Shown here: positions 43,992 to 56,408 of the stretch, in pieces
Position numbering within the stretch: the stretch's first letter is position 1
Layout: each line of letters begins with the position of its first letter
NCBI GenBank assembly: GCA_010015805.1
Contig: ML978122.1
Span: forward strand, 3,010,453-3,074,452
From: Rhizodiscina lignyota
Taxonomy: Eukaryota
Length of the DNA stretch: 64,000 bases
Direction: 5' to 3'
Position numbers and translations under genes: made by a program
The notes under the pieces: generated by a model
What the model was told of the DNA's origin: nothing
The model's database searches: none
Seen by the model: the letters and a program-made list of their open reading frames with translations, nothing else

Positions 43992-44627
43992 TCAATCAAT
44001 AGGAATGAACCCTGGCAAGCTACGAACCCTTGAAATCCAGCTCTTCACAGCCGGGTAAGGATCCAGCGAGATATTCCCCATAGGAGCGAGAGCCACATAG
44101 GCAAAAACTGCAACATCCGCAATCGTCGGTCTTCCCAGTGCAAGCCACTCGTTCGCGCGAAGCTTCGTCTGCAAAATCTCAAGGGATTTGATTCCTTTGG
44201 TGGTAGCTTTCGCCAAAGCCGGTTCGCTGAGCGTCGAAACTCCTTTGAAGATGACGATGAAGCGAGCAAGAGCAACGCCAGTTTGAATCCAGCTGCTGGC
44301 GAATGCAAGCCAATCGACAATCGCGGCTTGCTCGGCGACATCGTTGGACCAGAATGACGAAGGCGTCTCGGTTGTACCAGGATCTGAGCGCGAGCCCGCA
44401 AGATAAACCAGTATTGCAGCCGAGTCTGTGAAAGTTTTTTCGCCGTGTACCAGGACAGGAATTTGACCACGGGGATTGATCGCCAGGAAGTCTGGTGAAT
44501 GTTGCTGATCGTTGAGGAGGCGGTCTAATTCAATGAATTCCAGCTCGATGCCCAGGAGAGCTGCAAGGAGGCGGACTTTGTAGCAGTTGCCGGAATCCTT
44601 CCGTGTGTATAACTTTGGAGGTGCCAT
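43992..44627 (-). CDS. Glutathione S-transferase (intronless)
   Basis: SGNCYKVRL, NPRGQIPVL, DSAAILVYLA, PTIADVA, YPAVKSWISRV. Confidence 0.92.
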   Translation of the reverse strand: MAPPKLYTRKDSGNCYKVRLLAALLGIELEFIELDRLLNDQQHSPDFLAINPRGQIPVLVHGEKTFTDSAAILVYLAGSRSDPGTTETPSSFWSNDVAEQAAIVDWLAFASSWIQTGVALARFIVIFKGVSTLSEPALAKATTKGIKSLEILQTKLRANEWLALGRPTIADVAVFAYVALAPMGNISLDPYPAVKSWISRVRSLPGFIPID

Positions 44628-45674
44628 CTCGACAAGCTTCTCGAGAGATGGATTGGATTATAACGAGCGACACCACGGCCCCATATAAATCCTCAAAAGT
44701 GCAGAACGAGCACAAGGCTACACAAAGAATAAAGCCAGTCGATACTGATCCTTCAGATTGAGTTTTAATCCGCACCGAAAACGCTTTCAATTGGCTCCGA
44801 CTCCGGCGCCGGTTCCGGATCCAGGTCTCAATACCGCTTCAATCACTTTTCGTCGGTAGAAAGGTAACAGCAATGTAACTTTTTCTTGCTCTGTAGTGTC
44901 TACTTCAGCGTTGCAAGCGTTGCTCTACGAAGGAGCTGGTTTCCGGTGAGCGAACGAGACTGGTGGCGTCCCTTTTCCGTGACAATGAGAAGCAAAACTT
45001 CTGAGGTTCGTAGGGCAAGCTACTCCCTAACAGCCTTAAATGTAACTTCACCGATGTAAGGAAACTTCTTAGAAGTGCCGAGGGCAACTTTGATAGAGTG
45101 GCTCCGCGGAAACTAGCTCCTTCTGTTAGGGTCGTATATATACGCCTTCTAACGTCTGAATATTAGATGTTCAGACATTGTTACCTTTTTGGTGGTCTAT
45201 GCAGCTAGCGCATGAGATCTAACACCTTCGTAGCTCCTAATCTTCTTGTTCGTACGGGGGAGCGTGCTTACTTCCTTACTTCCTTCCTTTAAGGACTCCT
45301 CAAAGTCTATTATCATAGAATGCTGACTATTTGCTATCAAATCGATAAGATCTATGAATCTAAGTTGCTCAAAGAGGACGGGAAACGCCCACTGCATGTC
45401 AAGTGATACAGATTACTTCCTAAAACGCCGCTCACATTAAAATGTAGATAAATGCTATCCAGTGTATATTTAATTAAGCTTTCAGAGATACCATTACTCA
45501 TGCTAAAGAACAAAACTTATTCTTACCGCGACCGTTCAGTTAATCCAGCTCGACTATTTTGACAAACACAGATATGGTCCAGTCCACATGCAGTAAGCTC
45601 AAAAGCTGAATAAAAAATGACTAATCAAGATGCGCCTAAACCGACATCCCCGTTTCCATCTTCGGTCCTTAACA

Positions 45675-47922: not shown

Positions 47923-48935
47923 CTACAAGAATAGAGCAGCTATGATTCCCACACAACTCAGAACGACCGGTGTGTTGTCCCACATCCGCGCTGCAGTGCC
48001 TTCGAATTGCGAGGTAGCGGGACTTGAAGCTGGCGTAACAGTGCTACTTCCACTGCCACTGCTGCTCGAAGGCGATATGGTACCATTACTGCCGCCTTTC
48101 ACCATTTCAAAATTTGCGCAAGTCAATCTGGTTGTGTTCATGCTATGAATGACGATGCTCTTGTCGCCGAAAAAGTACGGACTGCTGGGGTCGGTAGAGA
48201 GGAACATATCGGTGTACGTGGTCATGAAAGATGACGATGTGATATTGCCATGCTTTCCTGCGAGATCACCTGCCTGGCAGGTTTGGGGCGCGTTTTGCTC
48301 GCAGGGGTGAAGCTCTCCACGGTTTGTTGGGTCGAGGTGACCGAGAGTTGCTGTGCAGTTGCCGTCGGCGGGAACAGGCATGGCGTGGACGTGATAGACT
48401 GTGATTGTAAGCTATGAATTGACAGCTAAGCTTGGGAGGCTGATTCCAGAAACCGATTCTGATTTTGAGTTGCAAGAATGAGAACGACATACCGAAGGGG
48501 CCATATTGAGCTTCGTTTGGGAATCCGGTGAAGTCAATAGTAAACGTGACACCAGTACCATTAGCCACTGAAGTTCCTGTGATAGAGCCCGTAATGGTAG
48601 AGCCAGTCAGGTTATCGAAGTTAGTGCTGGGAAGCACAGCTCGGTATGATGCGGCTGGCAGGTTGCTTTGAACAGAGGCATTCCCTCCAGGGCCTAGACG
48701 ACATTGAGTCAATAATACCTGCGGCAAGCTAGATAAAATGTAGGAGAGGAAACGAACCCGTAAATCCTGGAATTGGCGGTCCATCGTACGTGATAGCGCC
48801 CTCGATGGTCTCAACGCCGCTGAACGGGGTCGGAACAATGGGATCGACGCCGCTCTGGGTGCTGGTAAGAAGAACCGGTGGAGGCGGAGCTTGAGCGGCA
48901 GTGATGGCGACAAACGCCGCAAGGGAGAGCTTCAT
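47923..48935 (-). CDS. Secreted/GPI-anchored Cu-only superoxide dismutase (Sod5-like), 3 exons
   Basis: Signal peptide MKLSLAAFVAITAA, GPF|VYHVHAMPVPADGNCTATLGHLDP, TCQAGDLAGKHG, SIVIH...RLTCANF. Ser-rich stalk and hydrophobic GPI-like C-terminus. Confidence 0.9.
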
Positions 48936-49856
48936 GTGCATCGCTAAAAAGCTGTAGACACTTGTCCAAATGAGGGAGCAAGTAGTCGTTGCGTTGGGCA
49001 GAGGAGAAGTCAAATGAGCAGCGTTCGTGTCGTTCAGGCAGCTTTCACGGGAAGATTATGAGGATGCCTCGTTCGTGAACGAATGCAACCGCCAAGGGAA
49101 AAATCTTATGTAGATGAAAAGTCAGACTGAGAAATAAACAAGTATATAGGAGGAACCGCTCGCTCGAGCTCGTCCCTGTCTACGACTGAACCTTCCAACA
49201 TTCTGCCGCGGAATCGAGTACGTCAAGGGCACAATGACATCAAGACTTTTGGGTTTACCCAAGAAGAGACTGGAGAAATGCTGCCCGCAGAGGATGGCGA
49301 AGGACACGACGAAGCAAGCAGTCAGGGAACAGGTGGATAGCGGAAAGAGAACGCGGGAGAACAGATGTGGGGAATGTGAATCATCTCATTCCCCTTTGGC
49401 CCGGAAAGCTTCTCCCCCACCAATAGCATAGTTTCGGAGGAAAATGCGATGTGGAGGTTTGGATTGAGTGAAATTGAAGAGCAGTGGGTGCGTGCGGACC
49501 AGTTCCCGATTCGTCGTGTATCAATAAAGTGACATCAAGACTTGGCAGGGGATTTGATGTTTGGCTGGGATAGTGCTGCTCTATCGTAGCGGGGAAACGC
49601 AGTTGCTAGTGCTTGGGAACAACCAGTTGTAAATTGCAGCAAGTATCTTACTTATAACAAAGCATCCTCAAATAGCATTAACGGCGCAGAGTACTCAGAT
49701 ACAAATGCCCAAGTGCGACTCCGAACGTATATTATACTGATGCGATTGAACCTTTAACACCGAGATTGTAAGTTAGGTAGTTTTAGGCGTTCAGCTTAGC
49801 GTTGAAGAAATTCGCGTCTTGATGCCGAGCCTCTTCATCACCCCGACAACTGTAAT

Positions 49857-51854
49857 TCATTCCTCGAGCAACACAACAGCATTTGAGATCTTCTCAAAGT
49901 CTCCTGAACTATCGTCAACCACTCTCATTTTGAGACGAACCATGCCGTCAACATCTGTTGGCGCTTCTTCCTGTGCTTTCGCATTCGGCGTGGCGTAGCA
50001 CAGCCCTGGGAATAGAGACATCTTTACTCTCCCCGAGCGATGATGAGACCGATTTACGGGACTCCATCCGTCTTCCACTGGATCCATAATATGCGGATCA
50101 AACGGTGCTCCAACCTTCACCGTTCTAAGATGCATTTCAGGTTTGACGGTGAGCATTCTACATTTGACTTCGAGCGCTTCGTGAAAGATCTCGCGAACGA
50201 GCTCTCTATCCTCATCTGCAATCTGGACACTGGTGCCCAGGAGAGCAGATAGTGCAATGAGAAGTCGATTTGCAAGCTCGTTCGCCTTATTGGGTCGAGT
50301 GTACCCCGTAAAAGCAGGCTCACTCATCAGTCGGTCATGTGCAGCGCGGTCAAGAGTTTGAAGAGCTTTCTTGCCTTCTTCTTGCAACTTGAGACATTTT
50401 CTATATCCCTCGAGGAGCTGCGATTGTCCTCTGTCGAAGTTTGGCCAGTCACTGTTGAAAACCCACTCACAGAGCGCTGCCGCGATGGCAGCCCCTATGA
50501 TATGTTGCGCCGATGCTCCGTTTAAAATTTCGCTAATATGTGTAACAGACGCATCCGCATCAGTTGTGTTACCGATGGAGCGTTTGAAGAGCGCGTCCAA
50601 TTCACTGTTTTGTTCTATTCGATTGGCAGCGTCTTGGATAGGATCCGTATGTTGATCGAACGCCTTCCTGATGGTATTGTACGCGATATCCCCGAGGCCT
50701 TGAGTAATCCGGTTCGTGACTGATTGTCCAGTGGAAATTTCGAAGGGCTTTACAAATCTGGCAAGATTCCTCGTCTCAGAAATCTCCCGTTCAAGGGATA
50801 AGACTTTCAGTTTTCGATCGGAAAGGTCCTTTTTGAGATCGCGGTCCCTTTGCACGCTGTCCCAACAGTCCTTGCGATTTCTCTGCTCTTCCTCGTTAAA
50901 TGCAAGTTGGTTACGGAGCTTCGCACACTCTGATTGGAGACTGTAATTCTCATCGTTCAGCGTTCTGATGGTAGCCTCCGCCGCCAACAACTTCTCCTGT
51001 AGCTCCTCGACTAGAGTACGTCGAGTCGGGCCAGGTTGTTCAGTTCGGACCGTATATTGCCAAGACTGCCTCTGAATTGTTGAATAACGGCGCTGAGTTC
51101 TGAGTTCTTCTGCAGACTCTTCGCTGTCGATTACCATTTCGCTTTGCCCAACCGAAACCTGCCTGGTCTCAGCCGTGGGTCTAGAATGGTGCTCAGACAA
51201 GATGCTCTTGGCGCTCGTAGGACTCTTCAACGGAAGGTTAGATGTCTCTGCGCTGGACGAGCATTATGGGATACTCACTGAGGAAGACCTGCTAACTGAT
51301 CTCTCAGTTCGCTCTCGCCCTCGATACTTCGCTTCCCCTCCTGACTGCTCCCGAGGGTTGCTAATAATATCAACAGCGACATTCTTGCTTCGCGACCTCG
51401 TAGCGCGAGTTTCTAGTGGTGCTGCTGCAGATATGCTCCTGGATCTAGTTTTCCGGTCGAAAGTTTGCTGGAAATGCGGGTCGCCAATCAGCATGTCCTT
51501 CCGAGCAAATGCGTCCAAGTAGGGTTCGTCTTCTTTAAATTCGGATTCGAACCATTTCCGGTCCAGGCATTCCGTGCCCACCTCGAGCATCATTCCTCGA
51601 TGTCTAAACTTCGCTTTATCGTTTCTGTAACATTTATCATGGATTTTCTTGATTAAGTTGTCTACTTTCTCCCAAGTAAAGTCGCGAGGCCATCTCCCCT
51701 TCAAATAACTGACGATGCTTTCTCGAAAGATTTCTCGGCCAATACGGTACTTTGCTTTGAGATCATACCAAGCGAGGACATGTGCCATTTCCTCCGGACT
51801 CCATAGGAAAGGTTCCTTTGCAGGCCGACGTGAGCCACGCTTTCTCTTTGGCAT
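49857..51854 (-). CDS. Myb/trihelix-like N-terminus + coiled coil + C-terminal GrpE-like motif protein (about 647 aa; intron 51225-51278)
   Basis: The GTGAGT...CTAAC...GAAG intron joins ORFs 51264..51932 and 49857..51230 in phase 0. N-terminal MPKRKR NLS and WSPEEMAHVL...FTWEKVDNLIKKI. Coiled coil. C-terminal VKVGAPFDPHIM...GRVKMSLFPGL...KISNAVVLL. Confidence 0.75.
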
Positions 51855-52354
51855 TCTTGTTTTTGTGCTGGATGAAAAGACCCCAAGCGGCGATGGGATG
51901 AAGCAACGTTGGAGATCCGGAGGGCTGCCCACCGAGAAATTTCGCGATGAAGACTTCTGCCTAGAACCTCCAGTGACTCAAAGCTTCATTTCTTGCAGGT
52001 TTGAGTCATACGATCGGTGGTTCGCAATCAGGAGTTAAGGCAATCGTTTCAGCAGCGCAGCAGGGAGGGAGAGCGACCTTTATTTGACTGGAGATGGTCA
52101 GGATCCTGAGCCATTTCGCCTTCCGCAAAGGGGTACGCCTCTTGCTATGAATGCAGGTCCAATACACTGGGATCTGGTGCCTTTGTTGTTTATTGGGCGC
52201 CATATGCAGCCGTACGGCACAGCGTGTGGGGTCGTTGCCTTCTCCAGCCACAACAAGGTCGGCGGCCTCAGACGCAAATTCGGATATAAAAAGTCTGTAC
52301 AGGGTATTACAAAATGAACTGTAGACTCTACGACGTAGATGTAGAAAGACGAGA

Positions 52355-55133
52355 ATGGCTTCAGTCCTGCGCGAGGCATCCATGGCTTCCTCCGTTACCC
52401 TTGGGCGGCTGCCCCATTCCGCAAGTGCAACTCCTGGTCCAAGTAACTACTCTGGTAGGGCAACAGCAGGATCTGAAGATGTGCACATGCAGGATGTCGA
52501 CGGCGAGTTCCACAATATTTGGACGCGCTTCGTTGTCGCCATAGACTATGGCACAACGTTCTCCTGTGTCGCGTACGTAGCTGTTCCCGGCGACTACAAC
52601 GGTGAATACGAGTCCGCTAGACGGCGGCGTGATAGGATCAGCATTATAGACGACTGGCCAGGCGATCCGGAAAAGCAATCGTTTACAAGCGCGCGCACTC
52701 TGAACAAGGAAACCCCCACAGACATCTGGTATTTCGACCCCACTATCAACGACATGGGCTCCGACTACGGGTCACAATCCTCTGACGATGTCGCAAATGA
52801 TCAGGACATGGAAGGAGCAGATGATCGTAGCCAGCAGGAACGGAGTGATGAAGAAGACATTGGCAATGGAAACGATGGAAGCGATAGAGCGGATGACCGG
52901 AATGAAAATGAACAGAGCGTGGAAGCAGACGACCTGAACGAACGTCGACACGAACAGGAACAACCCCGTGAAAGTTCTCAAGACAAGACAGCCAAGCCGC
53001 TTGAAGACGAGAAGTCCTTTGGTCGTCGCCTTCCGAACAATGTCTGCTTCGGCTACAAGGTGCAAGACGCGTTGAGGTTCCCAGGCAGTCTTAGCTCGGG
53101 GAGAAGAGCAAACGAGCCGATCAGTCGAATGAAGCTGATGCTCCATAATGATATCACCACACGAGAAGTCCGCCGGGAACTGCGACCCATCCTGAACGAT
53201 CTGAAGCGACAAAAACCACGTATCATCGAACGGCACGAAGATGTTATAGCAGACTCTTTGACTTGTCTTCTCGGGCACACGAAATGCCAATTAAGGAAAC
53301 GCGACGACTTTCGGGATGGTTCTCAGGTCGAGTTTGTCCTCTGCATCCCTCCTGCATGGCAACCGAAAGCCCGTCGGCAAATGCAGGAAGCTATGGCCGT
53401 CGCTATACGGAGAAGCGGCTTGGGCGATACTCGTGACAAAACGGTGGACAACTTGTTTTATGTCCCCGAACCTGAGGCAGCTGCAGAATTTGTTCTTGCG
53501 GAACATGGAGAAATCATGGTAATGTTGTCCTCCCAGCGCCTGAGTACCATTAGTTTGACGTGCGACAGGCAGATGACGTGTTCCTGGTACTAGATGCTGG
53601 CTGCGGAACCGTTGACCAAGGAATCTATAGAGTGAGTGGGACGGAGCCGCTTAGACTAGCTGTGGAAGAAGGTCAACCTACTGGTATGTGAACAGAACTC
53701 GTGGGAATATGTAACTCACACATTTAGGCCGCTTGTGTGGATCTAGCTACCTGAACGAGAATATGCGCAAGCTGGCGATGACAAGACTTGAAGGCGAGCG
53801 AGGGTCGCTCCAAGAGAAAAACTCTACTACGTTACGAGGCCTTATCGAGAGCCATGTTATACGTGACTTTGAGACTCGGACGAAGAGGCAGTTTGACCCT
53901 GATAATGAGTCATTCAAAGAAACATACTACATACCTGGCCTCGCACCAGATCGCAGAAGGCGCTTTGGGCCCTCAAAACTCTTCATCCGTCGGTACGTTA
54001 CAGGTATTGACTACGTAGACGAAGCTAATCCCGCGCAGTGACGAAATTATGAGTGTCTTTGAACCAGTGCTCAATGATGTAACTTCTTTGCTGGAAGAGC
54101 AGATACGACTTTGCGCAGATAAGAATAAGCACATCGATGTAAGTATTGCTAATTTCCCCCTTAATTTTGGGAACATCTGTTGACCTCCAAAAGAAAGTGG
54201 TATTGATTGGAGGGTTTGCGGAATCTAGAGCGCTCCGGAAGGCGGTCAGATCGAAACTCCAAGAACTGGAAAATCCTTATGGCCACATTCAGCTCATAAT
54301 TCGTGAGGAGTGCGTCCCTGGCGTGGTGCTCTATTATCCTAGCGCACCCGTTCGCTAATTGGTTTGCAGCGGAATATCGAGCACAGCGGTTGCCACTGGA
54401 GCTGTCATGCGGGCGCTGAACAAGACAGACGGTCCAAAACGACAATCGATGTCAAGCTACGGAATCAAACGGGATGAGGCCTGGCGACGCAATTGGGTCG
54501 CACACCAGAAACAAAAGAAATTTGCAACACGAGACAGACTGGACGGAATTGTCTATATCAAAAATACGATCGATTGGGTAATAAAGAAGGTGAGTCTCAC
54601 CGAGACAAACGAAACATTGGCAAAGTGATGATTGCAATGCAGGGCACTAAAGTAGATGGTATCTATCGCAAATCCTTTCCAACCACGCACACGATCGACG
54701 CCAAGACTGCACATGAGAGAAAGAGCTGGGTTTGTGTCGAGGTACTATACGTGTCTGATAGCAGCACAGAATCTAATTATCAGGTCACGCACAAGAAGAA
54801 CAAAGGTAGTTGCTTCCTGAAAGCATGGATGCAGATGTGAATCTAACCATGTGCGCATACATAGGTTGCGAACGCGCCGGACGAATCGAGGTCGATATGT
54901 ATTTTCTCAAAGAGCAAGGAATGGTTGAGCTTATCCAGCCTCCCAAAGGACGAGGTCACGATCATTACCAGGTGGATTTCGACATCATCATTGAAGTGAA
55001 TGGTCGCAATCTTTCCTTCACGGCCCAGTATCCGTGTGCGAAGGATGATAAACCGACTCAAGCCCTTGACCTGATGGAGGGTTCCCGAGCGTACACGTGT
55101 ATTGCTGCAGGCTTTGTGCCTGGGACAATGTAA
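52355..55133 (+). CDS. Atypical Hsp70-family (HSPA12-like) actin-fold ATPase, 8 exons
   Basis: Introns 53519-53568, 53684-53727, 53993-54038, 54139-54193, 54310-54369, 54590-54642 and 54806-54864 give one open frame. Motifs VAIDYGTTFSCVAY, LCIPPAW, PEPEAAA, LVLDAGCGTVD, LCGSSYLNE, VFEPVLNDV, VLIGGFAES, AVATGAV, SYGI. No EEVD tail. TATAAA at 52285. Confidence 0.9.
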
Positions 55134-55222
55134 CATATTGCTGTATTTTATTGATTGTGAATGATTCGAGTCTCTGCGCGGCTGTTCGGAGAAGTTGCTG
55201 ACGTTTCTGTCCTATACATCTA

Positions 55223-56408
55223 TCACTTCGTAGGTTTGAGGATTATATTGTCGATCAGTCGCACCGTACCAGTGCCACCGCCCAACCCGCAATCTTCGCC
55301 ATCTTGTGGTTCCTCTAATGGCATCATCTTGATCGCACCGCTGAGGATCGCGCCTCTTGTCTCGTCAACGTCTTCCAACTCTTCCAAACTATCAGGATCA
55401 GCAAGGGAGATATAATCGACCTCGAACCTTGCCCTTTTCGAAGGAGGAAGCTCATCCTGCTCCAACATTTTGCTATTCGCTATGTCGTTAGCCGCCCATA
55501 ATATGTCTCCTCTTGACCGCTTCCCGTTGTGATACTGCTCCTCTGCGCGCATGAGAGCCTGTGATAATACAGTCGCCACAGCTCGTCTCCTTGCACCAAG
55601 ATACACATTTCGTGAACTCATCGCCAGCCCACCCAGCTCACGCCTCGTCACGCCAATCCGGATGTCCATTGGAAGATGAAAGTCCTGCACCATCCGCCTT
55701 ATCACCACCGTCTGCTGCACGTCCTTTTGCCCAAAGTACGCACGCTCCGGTTGTACGATATTGAACAGCTTCATGCACACAGTCGCTACGCCTCTGAAGA
55801 AGACCGGCCGAGACGCGCCCTCCAGCACGCTGCCAACGGGTGTGATCAGAACGAACGATCCCTGTCCGTCAACCTCAGATGACGGTGGCAAGGTGGGATA
55901 CATTGTCTTCGTAGTAGGTGCGAATATCGCGCTTATACGACCTGAGTCGGAAGCTGCAAGTTCGCGGTCTAGCTCTGCAAGCATTGCAACGTCGGTGTCC
56001 CATGTGCGCGGGTAGGACGATAGGTCTTCGTTTACACCGAATTGTGTGGGGTTGACATATATGGAGACGAACACATCGGAGTTCTCCTGTGCAGCTTGTC
56101 GCATGAGGGAGAGGTGTCCGTCGTGCAATGCGCCCATGGTTGGTACGAGACCGACGGAGCGGCCTGAGAGGAGTAATGAACGGCGATAGGAGCGGAGGGG
56201 AGCGACATCGCGGAAGACCTGCGTGAAGGTATTGTCGTTTGATCGCAGTATGGAGCTACTGGAGAAGAATCTGAGTGCTGTAGTGTCAAGATTTAGCAAT
56301 TGGGCATTCAATCATGAATGCGGTTCAGCAACTACCTCTATGTCTGCAAATATGTGGTGGCACAGCTGCTGCTCCTCTTGTTCTCACCGAGGATAGAAAA
56401 AGAGACAT
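55223..56408 (-). CDS. PAN6: Pantoate-beta-alanine ligase (pantothenate synthetase)
   Basis: VPTMGALHDGH, SIYVNPTQF, FGQKDVQQ, LAMSSRN, RLIDN. Predicted first exon MSLFLSSVRTRG... spliced across about 56279-56335. Confidence 0.93.

What the first reader, a model, noticed from the sequence alone, without database searches (positions are those of the whole stretch)
49857..55133. Head-to-head atypical Hsp70 + GrpE-like coiled-coil gene pair: candidate dedicated fungal two-gene chaperone/defence module
Seen: two genes diverge from a roughly 500-bp intergenic spacer (ATGs at 51854 and 52355). One has every Hsp70 ATPase motif but an HSPA12-type short C-terminus with no EEVD. The other has a long coiled coil, a helical bundle and a terminal GAPFDPHIM...GRVKMSLFPGL...ISNAVVLL. 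Known: GrpE proteins are coiled coil + helical bundle + a beta domain with the pattern G.pFDP..h....G.V..v...Gy......r.A.V.V, and grpE is operonic with dnaK in bacteria. Fungal cytosolic Hsp70s normally use unrelated exchange factors (Sse1, Fes1, Snl1). Inference: the partner is a private GrpE-like cofactor of the adjacent Hsp70, co-expressed from a bidirectional promoter. The pair looks accessory and fast-evolving, sitting between an SOD gene and PAN6, which resembles fungal allorecognition/immunity gene pairs.
Basis: partly seen in the sequence, partly recalled or inferred. Interest (0 to 1): 0.9.

Follow-up and report, generated by a model that had tools for sequence, protein, structure and literature searches.

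The report
Fungal Hsp70-like gene with GrpE-like partner
Two back-to-back genes in the fungus Rhizodiscina lignyota, an unusual Hsp70-type ATPase and a coiled-coil protein whose tail weakly resembles the Hsp70 helper GrpE, stay side by side in many filamentous fungi, so the second is probably a dedicated helper of the first.

Summary
Two genes diverge from a 500-bp spacer. One is a 647-aa partner (2 exons, identical to a deposited R. lignyota hypothetical protein). The other is an 803-aa, 8-exon Hsp70-superfamily ATPase with no EEVD tail.

The main result is linkage. The partner belongs to an unnamed family, Pezizomycotina wherever named (85 clusters). In all 8 metagenome contigs with upstream DNA, an Hsp70-like gene sits head-to-head 0.4-0.6 kb away. 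Five pairs in four named species have consecutive locus tags, and five more share a contig.

Nothing supports a defence or allorecognition role. This scan has already noted HSPA12-type ATPases with GrpE-like partners in Naegleria and bacteria; this locus would be the fungal form. My paper searches found no description of it.

The parts
51279..51854 (-). Partner gene, exon 1 (residues 1-192). Basic N-terminus (MPKRKRGSRRPAK), a conserved N-terminal domain of about 120 residues that looks Myb/SANT-like, and the start of a low-complexity linker.
   Evidence: model identical to P0001; the N-terminal W..EE...LLAWLD block is conserved across the family; nearest Atlas clusters are DUF6818 and Myb_DNA-bind_3/4 (feature scores 0.76-0.85, TM 0.47-0.50). 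These are leads only.
51225..51278 (-). Partner gene intron, 54 nt (GTGAGT...AAG, CTAAC branch-like site).
   Evidence: Splicing it out reproduces the deposited protein P0001 exactly.
49857..51224 (-). Partner gene, exon 2 (residues 193-647 plus stop).
   Evidence: 100% identity and coverage to P0001.
50766..51023 (-). Probable coiled coil of the partner (about residues 260-345).
   Evidence: only weak matches to coiled-coil families (SlyX E 0.0012, Cnn_1N, HMMR_C, GIT_CC); heptad-rich, poorly conserved block in all family members. Inferred; no predictor was run.
50151..50729 (-). Helical domain of the partner (residues 358-550, nine helices) carrying the family motifs AAxCxWVF, LLxxYR, LDxAAHxSL and FxxALxLK.
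   Evidence: AlphaFold model m7c1b6da47c9f, pLDDT 89.6, pTM 0.90. (conservation).
49860..50318 (-). GrpE-like module of the partner (residues 495-647): the last two helices as a hairpin, then a small beta domain (residues 556-645, 49866-50135) with the motifs PGxxFDxxxM, VxLCLFPAL and SKAVV.
   Evidence: model m73cfe1f06844, pLDDT 85.3. GrpE entries are the only rows covering hairpin plus beta domain, and GrpE is Foldseek's top family; hhalign motif match, P 0.006, reached by 0 of 150 shuffles.
51855..52354 (.). 500-bp divergent intergenic spacer, a presumed bidirectional promoter.
   Evidence: The same head-to-head spacing (about 0.4-0.6 kb) is seen in 8 metagenome loci. No heat-shock element or k-mer is shared between spacers.
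52355..53518 (+). Hsp70-like ATPase, exon 1 (residues 1-388). Holds the phosphate-1 motif DYGTT (52544-52558) and an acidic insert (32 Asp/Glu in residues 126-225).
53569..53683 (+). Hsp70-like ATPase, exon 2. Holds the phosphate-2 loop DAGCGTVD (53593-53616), with Cys400 in place of a family-invariant Gly.
53728..53992 (+). Hsp70-like ATPase, exon 3.
   Evidence: Collinear with P0002-P0007.
54039..54138 (+). Hsp70-like ATPase, exon 4.
54194..54309 (+). Hsp70-like ATPase, exon 5. Holds the adenosine motif LIGGF (54203-54217).
54370..54589 (+). Hsp70-like ATPase, exon 6.
54643..54805 (+). Hsp70-like ATPase, exon 7.
54865..55133 (+). Hsp70-like ATPase, exon 8 with stop. The family-typical ending is ...AAGFVPGTM, with no EEVD.

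Best explanation
The locus encodes a conserved two-protein machine of filamentous ascomycetes. One protein is an atypical Hsp70-superfamily ATPase: a recognisable nucleotide-binding domain followed by a non-canonical C-terminal domain, with no EEVD. The other is its dedicated partner. The two are made together from a shared divergent promoter region. Reading from the N-terminus, the partner has a small Myb/SANT-like domain behind a basic, NLS-like start, then a disordered linker, a probable dimerising coiled coil, a nine-helix domain, and a small beta domain. I propose that the last two helices plus the beta domain work like the C-terminal half of GrpE. They would dock on the ATPase's nucleotide-binding domain and control nucleotide exchange, while the N-terminal domain targets the complex, possibly to DNA or chromatin. 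Shown here: the gene models, the family, the fold model and the recurrent head-to-head linkage. Inferred: binding, exchange activity, dimerisation and targeting.
For: Linkage.
- A metagenome scan with a partner sub-alignment returned 19 loci. The 8 that include DNA upstream of the partner all carry an Hsp70-like gene on the opposite strand 0.4-0.6 kb away. These 8 represent 4 distinct lineages by nucleotide identity.
- Of 30 partner-family clusters looked up by name, 10 share organism and contig length with an Hsp70-like protein from the best 120 of 372 hits.
- Aspergillus nanangensis has two pairs. Their members are each other's nearest relatives in both families (40% and 53% identity). Distances in the two families correlate (Mantel r 0.60; 5 of 5000 permutations reach it).

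Fold.
- The model of residues 347-647 has pLDDT 89.6 and pTM 0.90. The model of residues 495-647 has pLDDT 85.3.
- Foldseek on 350,542 chains ranks GrpE entries 1, 2, 4, 5 and 7 (E 0.061-1.6).
- In the VIA second look, all 6 rows reaching the beta domain are GrpE entries.

Sequence.
- hhalign of the family against a 32-sequence GrpE profile picks 'y..v..PGt.FDp..M' against GrpE 'GV..I..GqpFDPn.HqA', at the same place just after the hairpin.
- The score is 22.0, P 0.006. The reversed profile scores 13.7. Of 150 column shuffles (mean 11.1, sd 2.2, max 19.1), none reaches 22.0.

The ATPase.
- The family profile matches solved DnaK/Hsc70 nucleotide-binding domains (E 3.5e-10 and weaker, 96 sequences).
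- Relatives pass the Pfam HSP70 cut-off (25.3-28.8 bits against 20.6).
- The window protein keeps 105 of 117 columns that are at least 90% conserved.
Against: - Pfam GrpE (PF01025) does not match the window protein. It was also not among the 25 most frequent families for 85 family members scanned at E up to 10, nor found in 10 C-terminal fragments.
- hhalign probability is only 6%. With a single E. coli GrpE sequence it found nothing relevant.
- The helical domain has nine helices within one chain. That differs from GrpE's two-helix contribution to a dimeric four-helix bundle.
- The nearest named clusters in the ESM Atlas are plant GIL1_IRKI_C and animal/fungal MIEAP, not GrpE.
- In the window ATPase, an invariant Gly of the phosphate-2 loop is Cys, which might impair ATP handling.
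- Fourteen of 85 family hits carry C2H2 zinc fingers. One of these, from Phialocephala subalpina, lies on a different contig from that species' listed Hsp70-like protein.
- Contig-sharing on large contigs (334-3046 kb) could be chance where locus tags are not sequential.
- The Mantel correlation is confounded by species relatedness.
Confidence: 0.5

Rival explanations
1. The two genes form a real functional pair, but the partner is not a GrpE-type exchange factor. Its C-terminal domain would belong to the eukaryotic MIEAP / GIL1-IRKI C-terminal fold, found on coiled-coil scaffold proteins. It would act as an adaptor, targeting factor or client of the ATPase. The GrpE resemblance would be a common 'hairpin plus small sheet' arrangement.
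For: -: the nearest named Atlas clusters are PF24994 GIL1_IRKI_C (feature scores 0.81-0.83; TM by query 0.55-0.57 over 115 residues) and PF16026 MIEAP (0.80; TM 0.52). These are all coiled-coil proteins with a C-terminal domain.
- A Basidiomycota cluster that carries a GTPase domain shares the fold (TM 0.64).
- All GrpE scores are in the noise band, and Pfam GrpE does not match.
- The evidence for strong linkage is the same as for the best explanation.
Against: - Atlas scores under 0.9 are leads only by the tool's own statement.
- Pfam MIEAP and GIL1_IRKI_C also fail to match.
- Among solved structures, GrpE is the one family that aligns across the beta domain in four searches by two programs.
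- hhalign picks the positionally equivalent GrpE motif.
- The two readings are not exclusive. MIEAP-type domains could themselves be GrpE-like.
Confidence: 0.28
2. The pair is an accessory defence or allorecognition module. The ATPase and partner would act in non-self recognition or cell death rather than housekeeping proteostasis.
For: - The partner evolves fast: 17-28% identity between most pairs, against 33-45% for the ATPase.
- It is multi-copy: three partner paralogues in R. lignyota and two pairs in A. nanangensis.
- One relative of the ATPase (P0004) has a roughly 400-residue N-terminal extension with a DCCHS string. That this string is caspase-like is my recollection; nothing was tested.
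- No heat-shock element is conserved in the spacers.
Against: - No PADLOC family matches either protein. That library covers prokaryotic systems only.
- Pfam found no HET, NACHT, HeLo or similar domain in the proteins scanned.
- The pair is kept head-to-head across distant classes rather than being strain-specific.
- No polymorphism or presence/absence data were examined.
Confidence: 0.1
3. The linkage reflects only a shared bidirectional promoter or conserved synteny. The two proteins do not interact.
For: Divergent gene pairs are common in compact fungal genomes (general knowledge). Binding was not tested here, because one search was unavailable.
Against: - Head-to-head adjacency is kept in 8 of 8 informative metagenome loci and in five consecutive-tag pairs in orders that I recall as spanning four classes, although flanking genes differ.
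- The pair was duplicated as a unit in A. nanangensis.
- The distance matrices of the two families correlate.
Confidence: 0.08
4. The pair is cargo or a remnant of a mobile element. The Myb/SANT-like domain would derive from a transposon accessory protein.
For: -: N-terminal structure look-alikes include Myb/SANT-like domains and the N-terminal parts of several transposases (TM 0.44-0.50).
- The family is multi-copy and patchy.
Against: - No terminal inverted or long direct repeats flank 49000-56000.
- The ATPase stop lies 90 bp from the PAN6 gene end, which leaves no room for element ends.
- Composition is even across the region.
- No transposase was found in the loci examined (looked only for Hsp70-like genes, so this point is weak).
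Confidence: 0.03

Closest known systems
GrpE (Pfam PF01025; E. coli GrpE, Thermus and Geobacillus GrpE, human GRPEL1), the nucleotide-exchange factor of DnaK and mitochondrial Hsp70
   Same: - The order of elements is the same: long helix or coiled coil, helical hairpin, small C-terminal beta domain.
- The motifs are collinear: G.pFDP..H against PG..FD...M at the start of the beta domain.
- It is the only solved family aligning across hairpin and beta domain, and it is Foldseek's top family.
- Its gene neighbours an Hsp70-type ATPase gene, as grpE neighbours dnaK in many bacteria (general knowledge).
   Different: - There is no Pfam match.
- The protein is 647 aa against about 200.
- It has an extra Myb/SANT-like N-terminal domain and a nine-helix domain in place of GrpE's simple four-helix bundle.
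- The beta domain carries two inserts, one of low confidence.
- The client is a non-canonical Hsp70-like ATPase, and the genes are divergent rather than operonic.
- Exchange activity is untested.
HSPA12A/HSPA12B-type atypical Hsp70s. A 2026 review states that HspA12's function is 'presently unknown' (PMC13580251; I read passages only).
   Same: - A diverged Hsp70 nucleotide-binding domain with phosphate-1, phosphate-2 and adenosine motifs.
- A non-canonical C-terminal region, with no lid and no EEVD.
- UniRef's automatic name for one relative (P0103) is 'Heat shock 70 kDa protein 12A'.
   Different: - I had no HSPA12 reference sequence, so subfamily membership was not tested.
- The fungal proteins carry an acidic insert in the nucleotide-binding domain.
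- They come with a conserved neighbouring partner. My paper searches did not find such a partner described for animal HSPA12.
MIEAP (PF16026) and plant GIL1/IRKI C-terminal domain (PF24994)
   Same: Coiled-coil proteins ending in an alpha+beta domain. They are the nearest named clusters to partner residues 495-647, by language-model features (0.80-0.83) and by predicted structure (TM 0.52-0.57).
   Different: - There is no Pfam match to either family.
- The scores are below the tool's trust level.
- My searches found no link between these families and Hsp70-type ATPases.
HSPA12-type ATPase plus GrpE-like partner modules noted earlier by this scan in Naegleria gruberi and bacteria (e1-672721, e1-671666, e1-1911981, e1-636974, e1-3130657)
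   Same: The logic is the same: an orphan HSPA12-type Hsp70 gene kept next to a coiled-coil gene whose protein ends in a GrpE-like part. These are AI notes. One is marked as checked later and standing.
   Different: - The host group differs (Pezizomycotina).
- The genes are head-to-head rather than operonic or tandem.
- The partner is larger, with a Myb/SANT-like N-terminus.
- I could not show homology between the fungal partner and those partners. Searches of 301 bacterial genomes with the fungal profiles gave nothing relevant.

Membership tests
GrpE (PF01025) | Sequence match to the Pfam GrpE model at or above its gathering score | tested here: not met
   No PF01025 hit for the window protein at E up to 0.1 or for the 301-aa and 153-aa C-terminal pieces at E up to 10. 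It is not among the 25 most frequent families over 85 members. It is absent from 9 further C-terminal fragments.
GrpE (PF01025) | Profile-profile similarity to GrpE over the hairpin and beta domain | tested here: inconclusive
   hhalign of A4 against a 32-sequence GrpE profile: score 22.0, P 0.006, probability 6%, 25 columns at the equivalent FDP motif. None of 150 column shuffles reaches it, and the reversed profile scores 13.7. With a single E. coli sequence there was nothing relevant.
GrpE (PF01025) | Fold: a helical hairpin followed by a small C-terminal beta domain | tested here: inconclusive
GrpE (PF01025) | Homodimer through a long N-terminal helix and a four-helix bundle | not tested
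   The coiled coil is inferred from weak Pfam coiled-coil matches only. The helical domain is modelled as nine helices in one chain. No dimer model was made.
GrpE (PF01025) | Binds the Hsp70 nucleotide-binding domain and speeds ADP release | not testable with these tools
A biochemical assay is needed.
GrpE (PF01025) | Gene linked to the gene of its Hsp70-type client | tested here: met
   Head-to-head in this window, in 8 of 8 informative metagenome loci and in five consecutive-locus-tag pairs.
Hsp70 superfamily (PF00012), atypical / HSPA12-like | Match to the Hsp70 nucleotide-binding domain | tested here: met
   The family profile A5 hits 96 solved Hsp70/DnaK sequences (best E 3.5e-10, profile 269-525 against NBD 139-398). 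Relatives P0003, P0095 and P0105 score 25.3-28.8 bits against the 20.6 cut-off. The window's single exons gave no hit. The spliced protein could not be handed to that tool.
Hsp70 superfamily (PF00012), atypical / HSPA12-like | Phosphate-1, phosphate-2 and adenosine-binding motifs intact | tested here: inconclusive
   DYGTT and LIGGF are present. The phosphate-2 loop reads DAGCGTVD, with Cys400 where 72 of 72 relatives have Gly. Overall, 105 of 117 conserved columns are kept.
Hsp70 superfamily (PF00012), atypical / HSPA12-like | Canonical substrate-binding domain, lid and EEVD tail (canonical Hsp70 only) | tested here: not met
   Pfam and PDB matches stop at the nucleotide-binding domain. The C-terminus is ...AAGFVPGTM. 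It is therefore atypical.
Hsp70 superfamily (PF00012), atypical / HSPA12-like | Closer to animal HSPA12A/B than to other Hsp70 branches | not tested
The only pointer is UniRef's automatic name for P0103.
MIEAP (PF16026) / GIL1_IRKI_C (PF24994) | Match to the Pfam model | tested here: not met
   Neither is among the hits at E up to 10 for the window pieces or the 9 further fragments, nor among the 25 most frequent families over 85 members.
MIEAP (PF16026) / GIL1_IRKI_C (PF24994) | Shared C-terminal alpha+beta fold | tested here: inconclusive
   ESM Atlas feature scores are 0.80-0.83 and TM by query is 0.52-0.57. These are below the tool's level of trust.
Myb/SANT-like DNA-binding domain (PF13837 / PF12776) for the partner's N-terminus | Three-helix Myb/SANT-like fold or a Pfam match | tested here: inconclusive
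   No Pfam match. Atlas feature scores are 0.76-0.85 (DUF6818, Myb_DNA-bind_3/4) and TM is 0.47-0.50.

The most novel reading that the evidence does not exclude
HSPA12-type Hsp70 ATPases, whose function is unknown, would have their own GrpE-derived exchange factor across life. This would hold in bacteria and amoebae (earlier notes of this scan) and, as shown here for linkage, throughout filamentous ascomycetes. In fungi, the factor would be fused to a Myb/SANT-like domain (in some members also C2H2 fingers) and a coiled coil, tethering an Hsp70-like motor to DNA or chromatin. The MIEAP and plant GIL1/IRKI C-terminal domains would be the same GrpE-like fold. That would predict that these poorly understood proteins are also cofactors of Hsp70-type ATPases.
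Probability: 0.2. Interest if true: 0.88.

Novelty: new variant of a known kind. Interest (0 to 1): 0.72.

Why it matters
Hsp70 chaperones are defined by their cofactors, yet the HSPA12-type branch has no known cofactor or function (PMC13580251, passages read). A partner gene held head-to-head with such an ATPase across distant classes of fungi offers a concrete, testable cofactor candidate. The test is simple: do the two proteins bind, and does the partner change nucleotide turnover? If the GrpE-like reading holds, GrpE-type exchange factors would extend beyond bacteria and organelles to a nuclear or cytosolic fungal system. It would also give a first handle on HSPA12 biology, and possibly on MIEAP and GIL1/IRKI proteins. 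If it fails, the conserved pair still defines an unnamed Pezizomycotina protein family with a confident fold model and an obligate genomic partner.

Tried and rejected
- No whole genome is held for the window. I could not check the neighbours of the two R. lignyota paralogues P0008 and P0051.
- The word-index search found only the partner itself. The family appeared only with the exhaustive HMMER search.
- The window's own ATPase was not among the listed hits. As a spliced product, it could not be passed to the Pfam, fold or complex tools; relatives and exon 1 were used instead.
- Foldseek with the 301-residue model found nothing (best E 0.056, haemoglobins).
- phmmer of P0001 against PDB sequences found nothing.
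- hhalign against a single E. coli GrpE sequence found nothing relevant.
- No PADLOC matches.
- The metagenome scan with the full family alignment failed because no conserved stretch was available. A sub-alignment of 8 closer members worked.
- The genome-contig scan with E. coli GrpE returned only Enterobacteriaceae. A broader GrpE set came from the genome search.
- Searches of 301 Pseudomonadota genomes gave nothing useful. The fungal ATPase profile found no match at E 1e-20. The partner profile hit only the coiled-coil columns (model positions roughly 60-300) in large, unrelated-looking reading frames, which I take as coiled-coil noise.
- No RNA holder was listed for the region. Read laying was not used, so expression and splice sites lack read support.
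- No heat-shock element or shared 7- or 8-mer occurs in five distinct spacers. The window alone has one site with one mismatch.
- No flanking terminal repeats.
- Paper searches found no description of this pair or of a GrpE-like partner of HSPA12. I read passages of PMC3879978 and PMC13580251; for all other papers I saw listings only.
- Supplement Data S1 of PMC13580251 (GrpE and Hsp70-like genes in prokaryotes) was not opened and may bear on the bacterial modules.

Full report
**What is there**

The window comes from the ascomycete Rhizodiscina lignyota, going by the name attached to the partner protein in public databases.

On the minus strand, a two-exon gene (51854-51279 and 51224-49857, with a 54-nt intron) encodes 647 residues. 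My model is letter-identical to the deposited hypothetical protein P0001.

On the plus strand, starting 500 bp away at 52355, I built an eight-exon model ending at 55133. Its seven introns are 44-60 nt long and all GT..AG. It encodes 803 residues. The model is collinear from about residue 58 to the last residues with fungal proteins of 717-764 aa, including the family-typical ending ...FVPGT.

PAN6 on the right flank is confirmed. The SOD-like gene on the left matches Pfam only below the cut-off.

**The ATPase**

- Single exons give no Pfam hit, and the spliced protein could not be handed to the library tools.
- Its relatives pass the Pfam HSP70 threshold over the nucleotide-binding part only (25.3-28.8 bits against 20.6).
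- A 72-sequence family profile hits 96 solved DnaK/Hsc70 nucleotide-binding domains (best E 3.5e-10).
- The window protein keeps 105 of 117 strongly conserved family columns.
- One Gly that is invariant in all 72 relatives, in the phosphate-2 loop, is Cys400 here.
- There is a 100-residue stretch with 32 acidic residues inside the domain. There is no EEVD tail.
- 'HSPA12-type' rests on a UniRef automatic name for one relative and on my recollection. I did not test it.

**The partner**

The word-index search found only the protein itself. The exhaustive HMMER search with residues 347-647 found 85 clusters at E up to 0.001. Every one of the 29 that carry a name is from Pezizomycotina.

The family has no Pfam domain, apart from C2H2 fingers appended in 14 of 85 hits. 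The alignment shows these parts in order:
- a conserved N-terminal block of about 120 residues (W..EE...LLAWLD...KL..W), Myb/SANT-like by weak Atlas look-alikes;
- a variable linker;
- a heptad-rich stretch;
- a conserved C-terminal region with the motifs AAxCxWVF, LLxxYR, LDxAAHxSL, FxxALxLK, PGxxFDxxxM, VxLCLFPAL and SKAVV.

AlphaFold models this region confidently (pLDDT 89.6, pTM 0.90) as nine helices followed by a small beta domain.

**Recurrent linkage (the firmest result)**

- A metagenome scan with a sub-alignment of the partner returned 19 loci.
- Eleven of them end before the partner's start or within 138 bp of it, so they cannot show an upstream neighbour.
- All eight remaining loci carry an Hsp70-like gene on the opposite strand, with 0.4-0.6 kb between the two starts. 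By nucleotide identity these eight represent four lineages.
- Independently, I looked up 30 partner clusters by name. Ten share organism and contig length with an Hsp70-like protein in the best 120 of 372 hits.
- Five of these have consecutive locus tags, in a Mollisiaceae species, Aspergillus nanangensis (two separate pairs), Capronia epimyces and Rhinocladiella mackenziei.
- The remaining 20 are uninformative, because only 120 of the 372 ATPase hits were listed.
- One zinc-finger-bearing member, from Phialocephala subalpina, lies on a different contig from that species' listed ATPase.
- The two A. nanangensis pairs are mutual nearest relatives in both families. The two distance matrices correlate over 11 pairs (r 0.60; 5 of 5000 permutations reach it). 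Species relatedness contributes to that figure.

**Is the tail GrpE-like?**

The evidence is consistent but weak.

For:
- Foldseek, a different method, ranks GrpE entries 1, 2, 4, 5 and 7 of 350,542 chains, at E 0.061-1.6 and TM about 0.26.
- In the second look, all six rows extending beyond the hairpin are GrpE entries.
- A profile of 32 GrpE sequences was gathered from bacterial genomes. It aligns best with the family at the positionally equivalent motif, where the beta domain begins (score 22.0, P 0.006). The reversed profile scores 13.7, and none of 150 column shuffles exceeds 19.1.

Against:
- No score is significant by the tools' own standards.
- Pfam GrpE never matches.
- The helical domain is far larger than GrpE's.
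- The ESM Atlas places the tail nearest to plant GIL1_IRKI_C and MIEAP clusters. These are also only leads and also lack any Pfam match.

**Mechanism proposed**

Shown here: two co-located, co-inherited genes; an Hsp70-type nucleotide-binding domain; and a partner with a confident alpha-plus-beta C-terminal fold.

Inferred: the partner dimerises through its coiled coil. It docks its hairpin and beta module on the ATPase to control nucleotide exchange, as GrpE does on DnaK. It brings the ATPase to a target through its N-terminal domain.

I put this at about 0.5. The main rival (about 0.28) keeps the functional pairing but drops the GrpE mechanism. The complex predictor was unavailable, so binding is untested.

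**Defence or allorecognition**

I found nothing for it beyond fast partner divergence and multiple copies:
- no PADLOC match;
- no cell-death or NLR-type domains in the Pfam scans;
- no mobile-element ends;
- conservation of the pair across distant classes.

**Relation to what is known**

- My seven paper searches found no description of this pair or of any GrpE-like cofactor for HSPA12-type proteins.
- A 2026 review calls HspA12's function unknown (PMC13580251, passages read).
- This scan itself has earlier notes, on other genomes, of HSPA12-type ATPases paired with GrpE-like partners in Naegleria and many bacteria. One of them is marked as checked and standing.
- These notes agree with my reading, but they are not independent proof. 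I could not connect the fungal partner to those families by sequence.
- I therefore file the locus as a new, fungal variant of the Hsp70-plus-exchange-factor kind. Linkage is well established; mechanism is open.

Noticed in passing
window 53593-53616 (codon 53602-53604): The phosphate-2 loop of the window's ATPase reads DAGCGTVD. A Gly that is invariant in 72 of 72 relatives is Cys400 here. This copy may have altered or lost ATPase activity.
   Followed up: partly
P0004 (Hyaloscypha variabilis relative of the ATPase, 1028 aa): It carries a roughly 400-residue N-terminal extension containing an LLLYDCCHSAAT string. I recall that string as resembling a caspase or metacaspase catalytic motif. Pfam found nothing at E up to 0.01.
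   Followed up: no
Partner-family hits P0024, P0027, P0034, P0040, P0043, P0045, P0054, P0071, P0074, P0080 and others: Fourteen of 85 family hits are long forms (about 860-1400 aa) with C2H2 zinc fingers appended after the conserved region. This fits a DNA-linked role. The one long form I could check (P. subalpina) is not on the same contig as that species' listed ATPase.
   Followed up: partly
P0023 (Mollisiaceae sp.) and P0028 (Xylaria curta): P0023 has a Cys-rich insert (CICG...CCECKVWQHTKC...CDEC) before the coiled coil that looks PHD-like to me. P0028 ends in a fragment matching FGE-sulfatase (PF03781, E 7e-9), possibly a gene-model fusion.
   Followed up: no
R. lignyota proteins P0008 and P0051 (outside the window): There are two further partner paralogues in the same species. 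P0008 is on a scaffold of the same length (3,322,451 bp) as the window's gene but is not in the window. Whether each has its own Hsp70-like neighbour is unknown.
   Followed up: partly
ESM Atlas cluster, Basidiomycota (structure row 4): A 628-aa Basidiomycota cluster has a tail resembling the partner's C-terminal module (TM by query 0.64). In it, 57% of members carry an MMR_HSR1 GTPase domain. This hints that the module may accompany other NTPases.
   Followed up: no
window 43992-44657 (-), 47923-48411 (-), 55223-56137 (-): Neighbouring genes are ordinary: a glutathione S-transferase (PF13417, E 4.6e-14), a Cu/Zn-SOD-like exon below the Pfam cut-off (23.1 against 28.9 bits), and pantoate-beta-alanine ligase (E 1.9e-81). 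The ATPase stop lies only 90 bp from the PAN6 reading-frame end.
   Followed up: yes
window 51855-52354: The spacer has one heat-shock-element-like site with one mismatch (GAAATTTCGCGAT, at spacer position 82). No such site occurs in the five other spacers checked (four lineages), and no shared 7- or 8-mers were found.
   Followed up: yes
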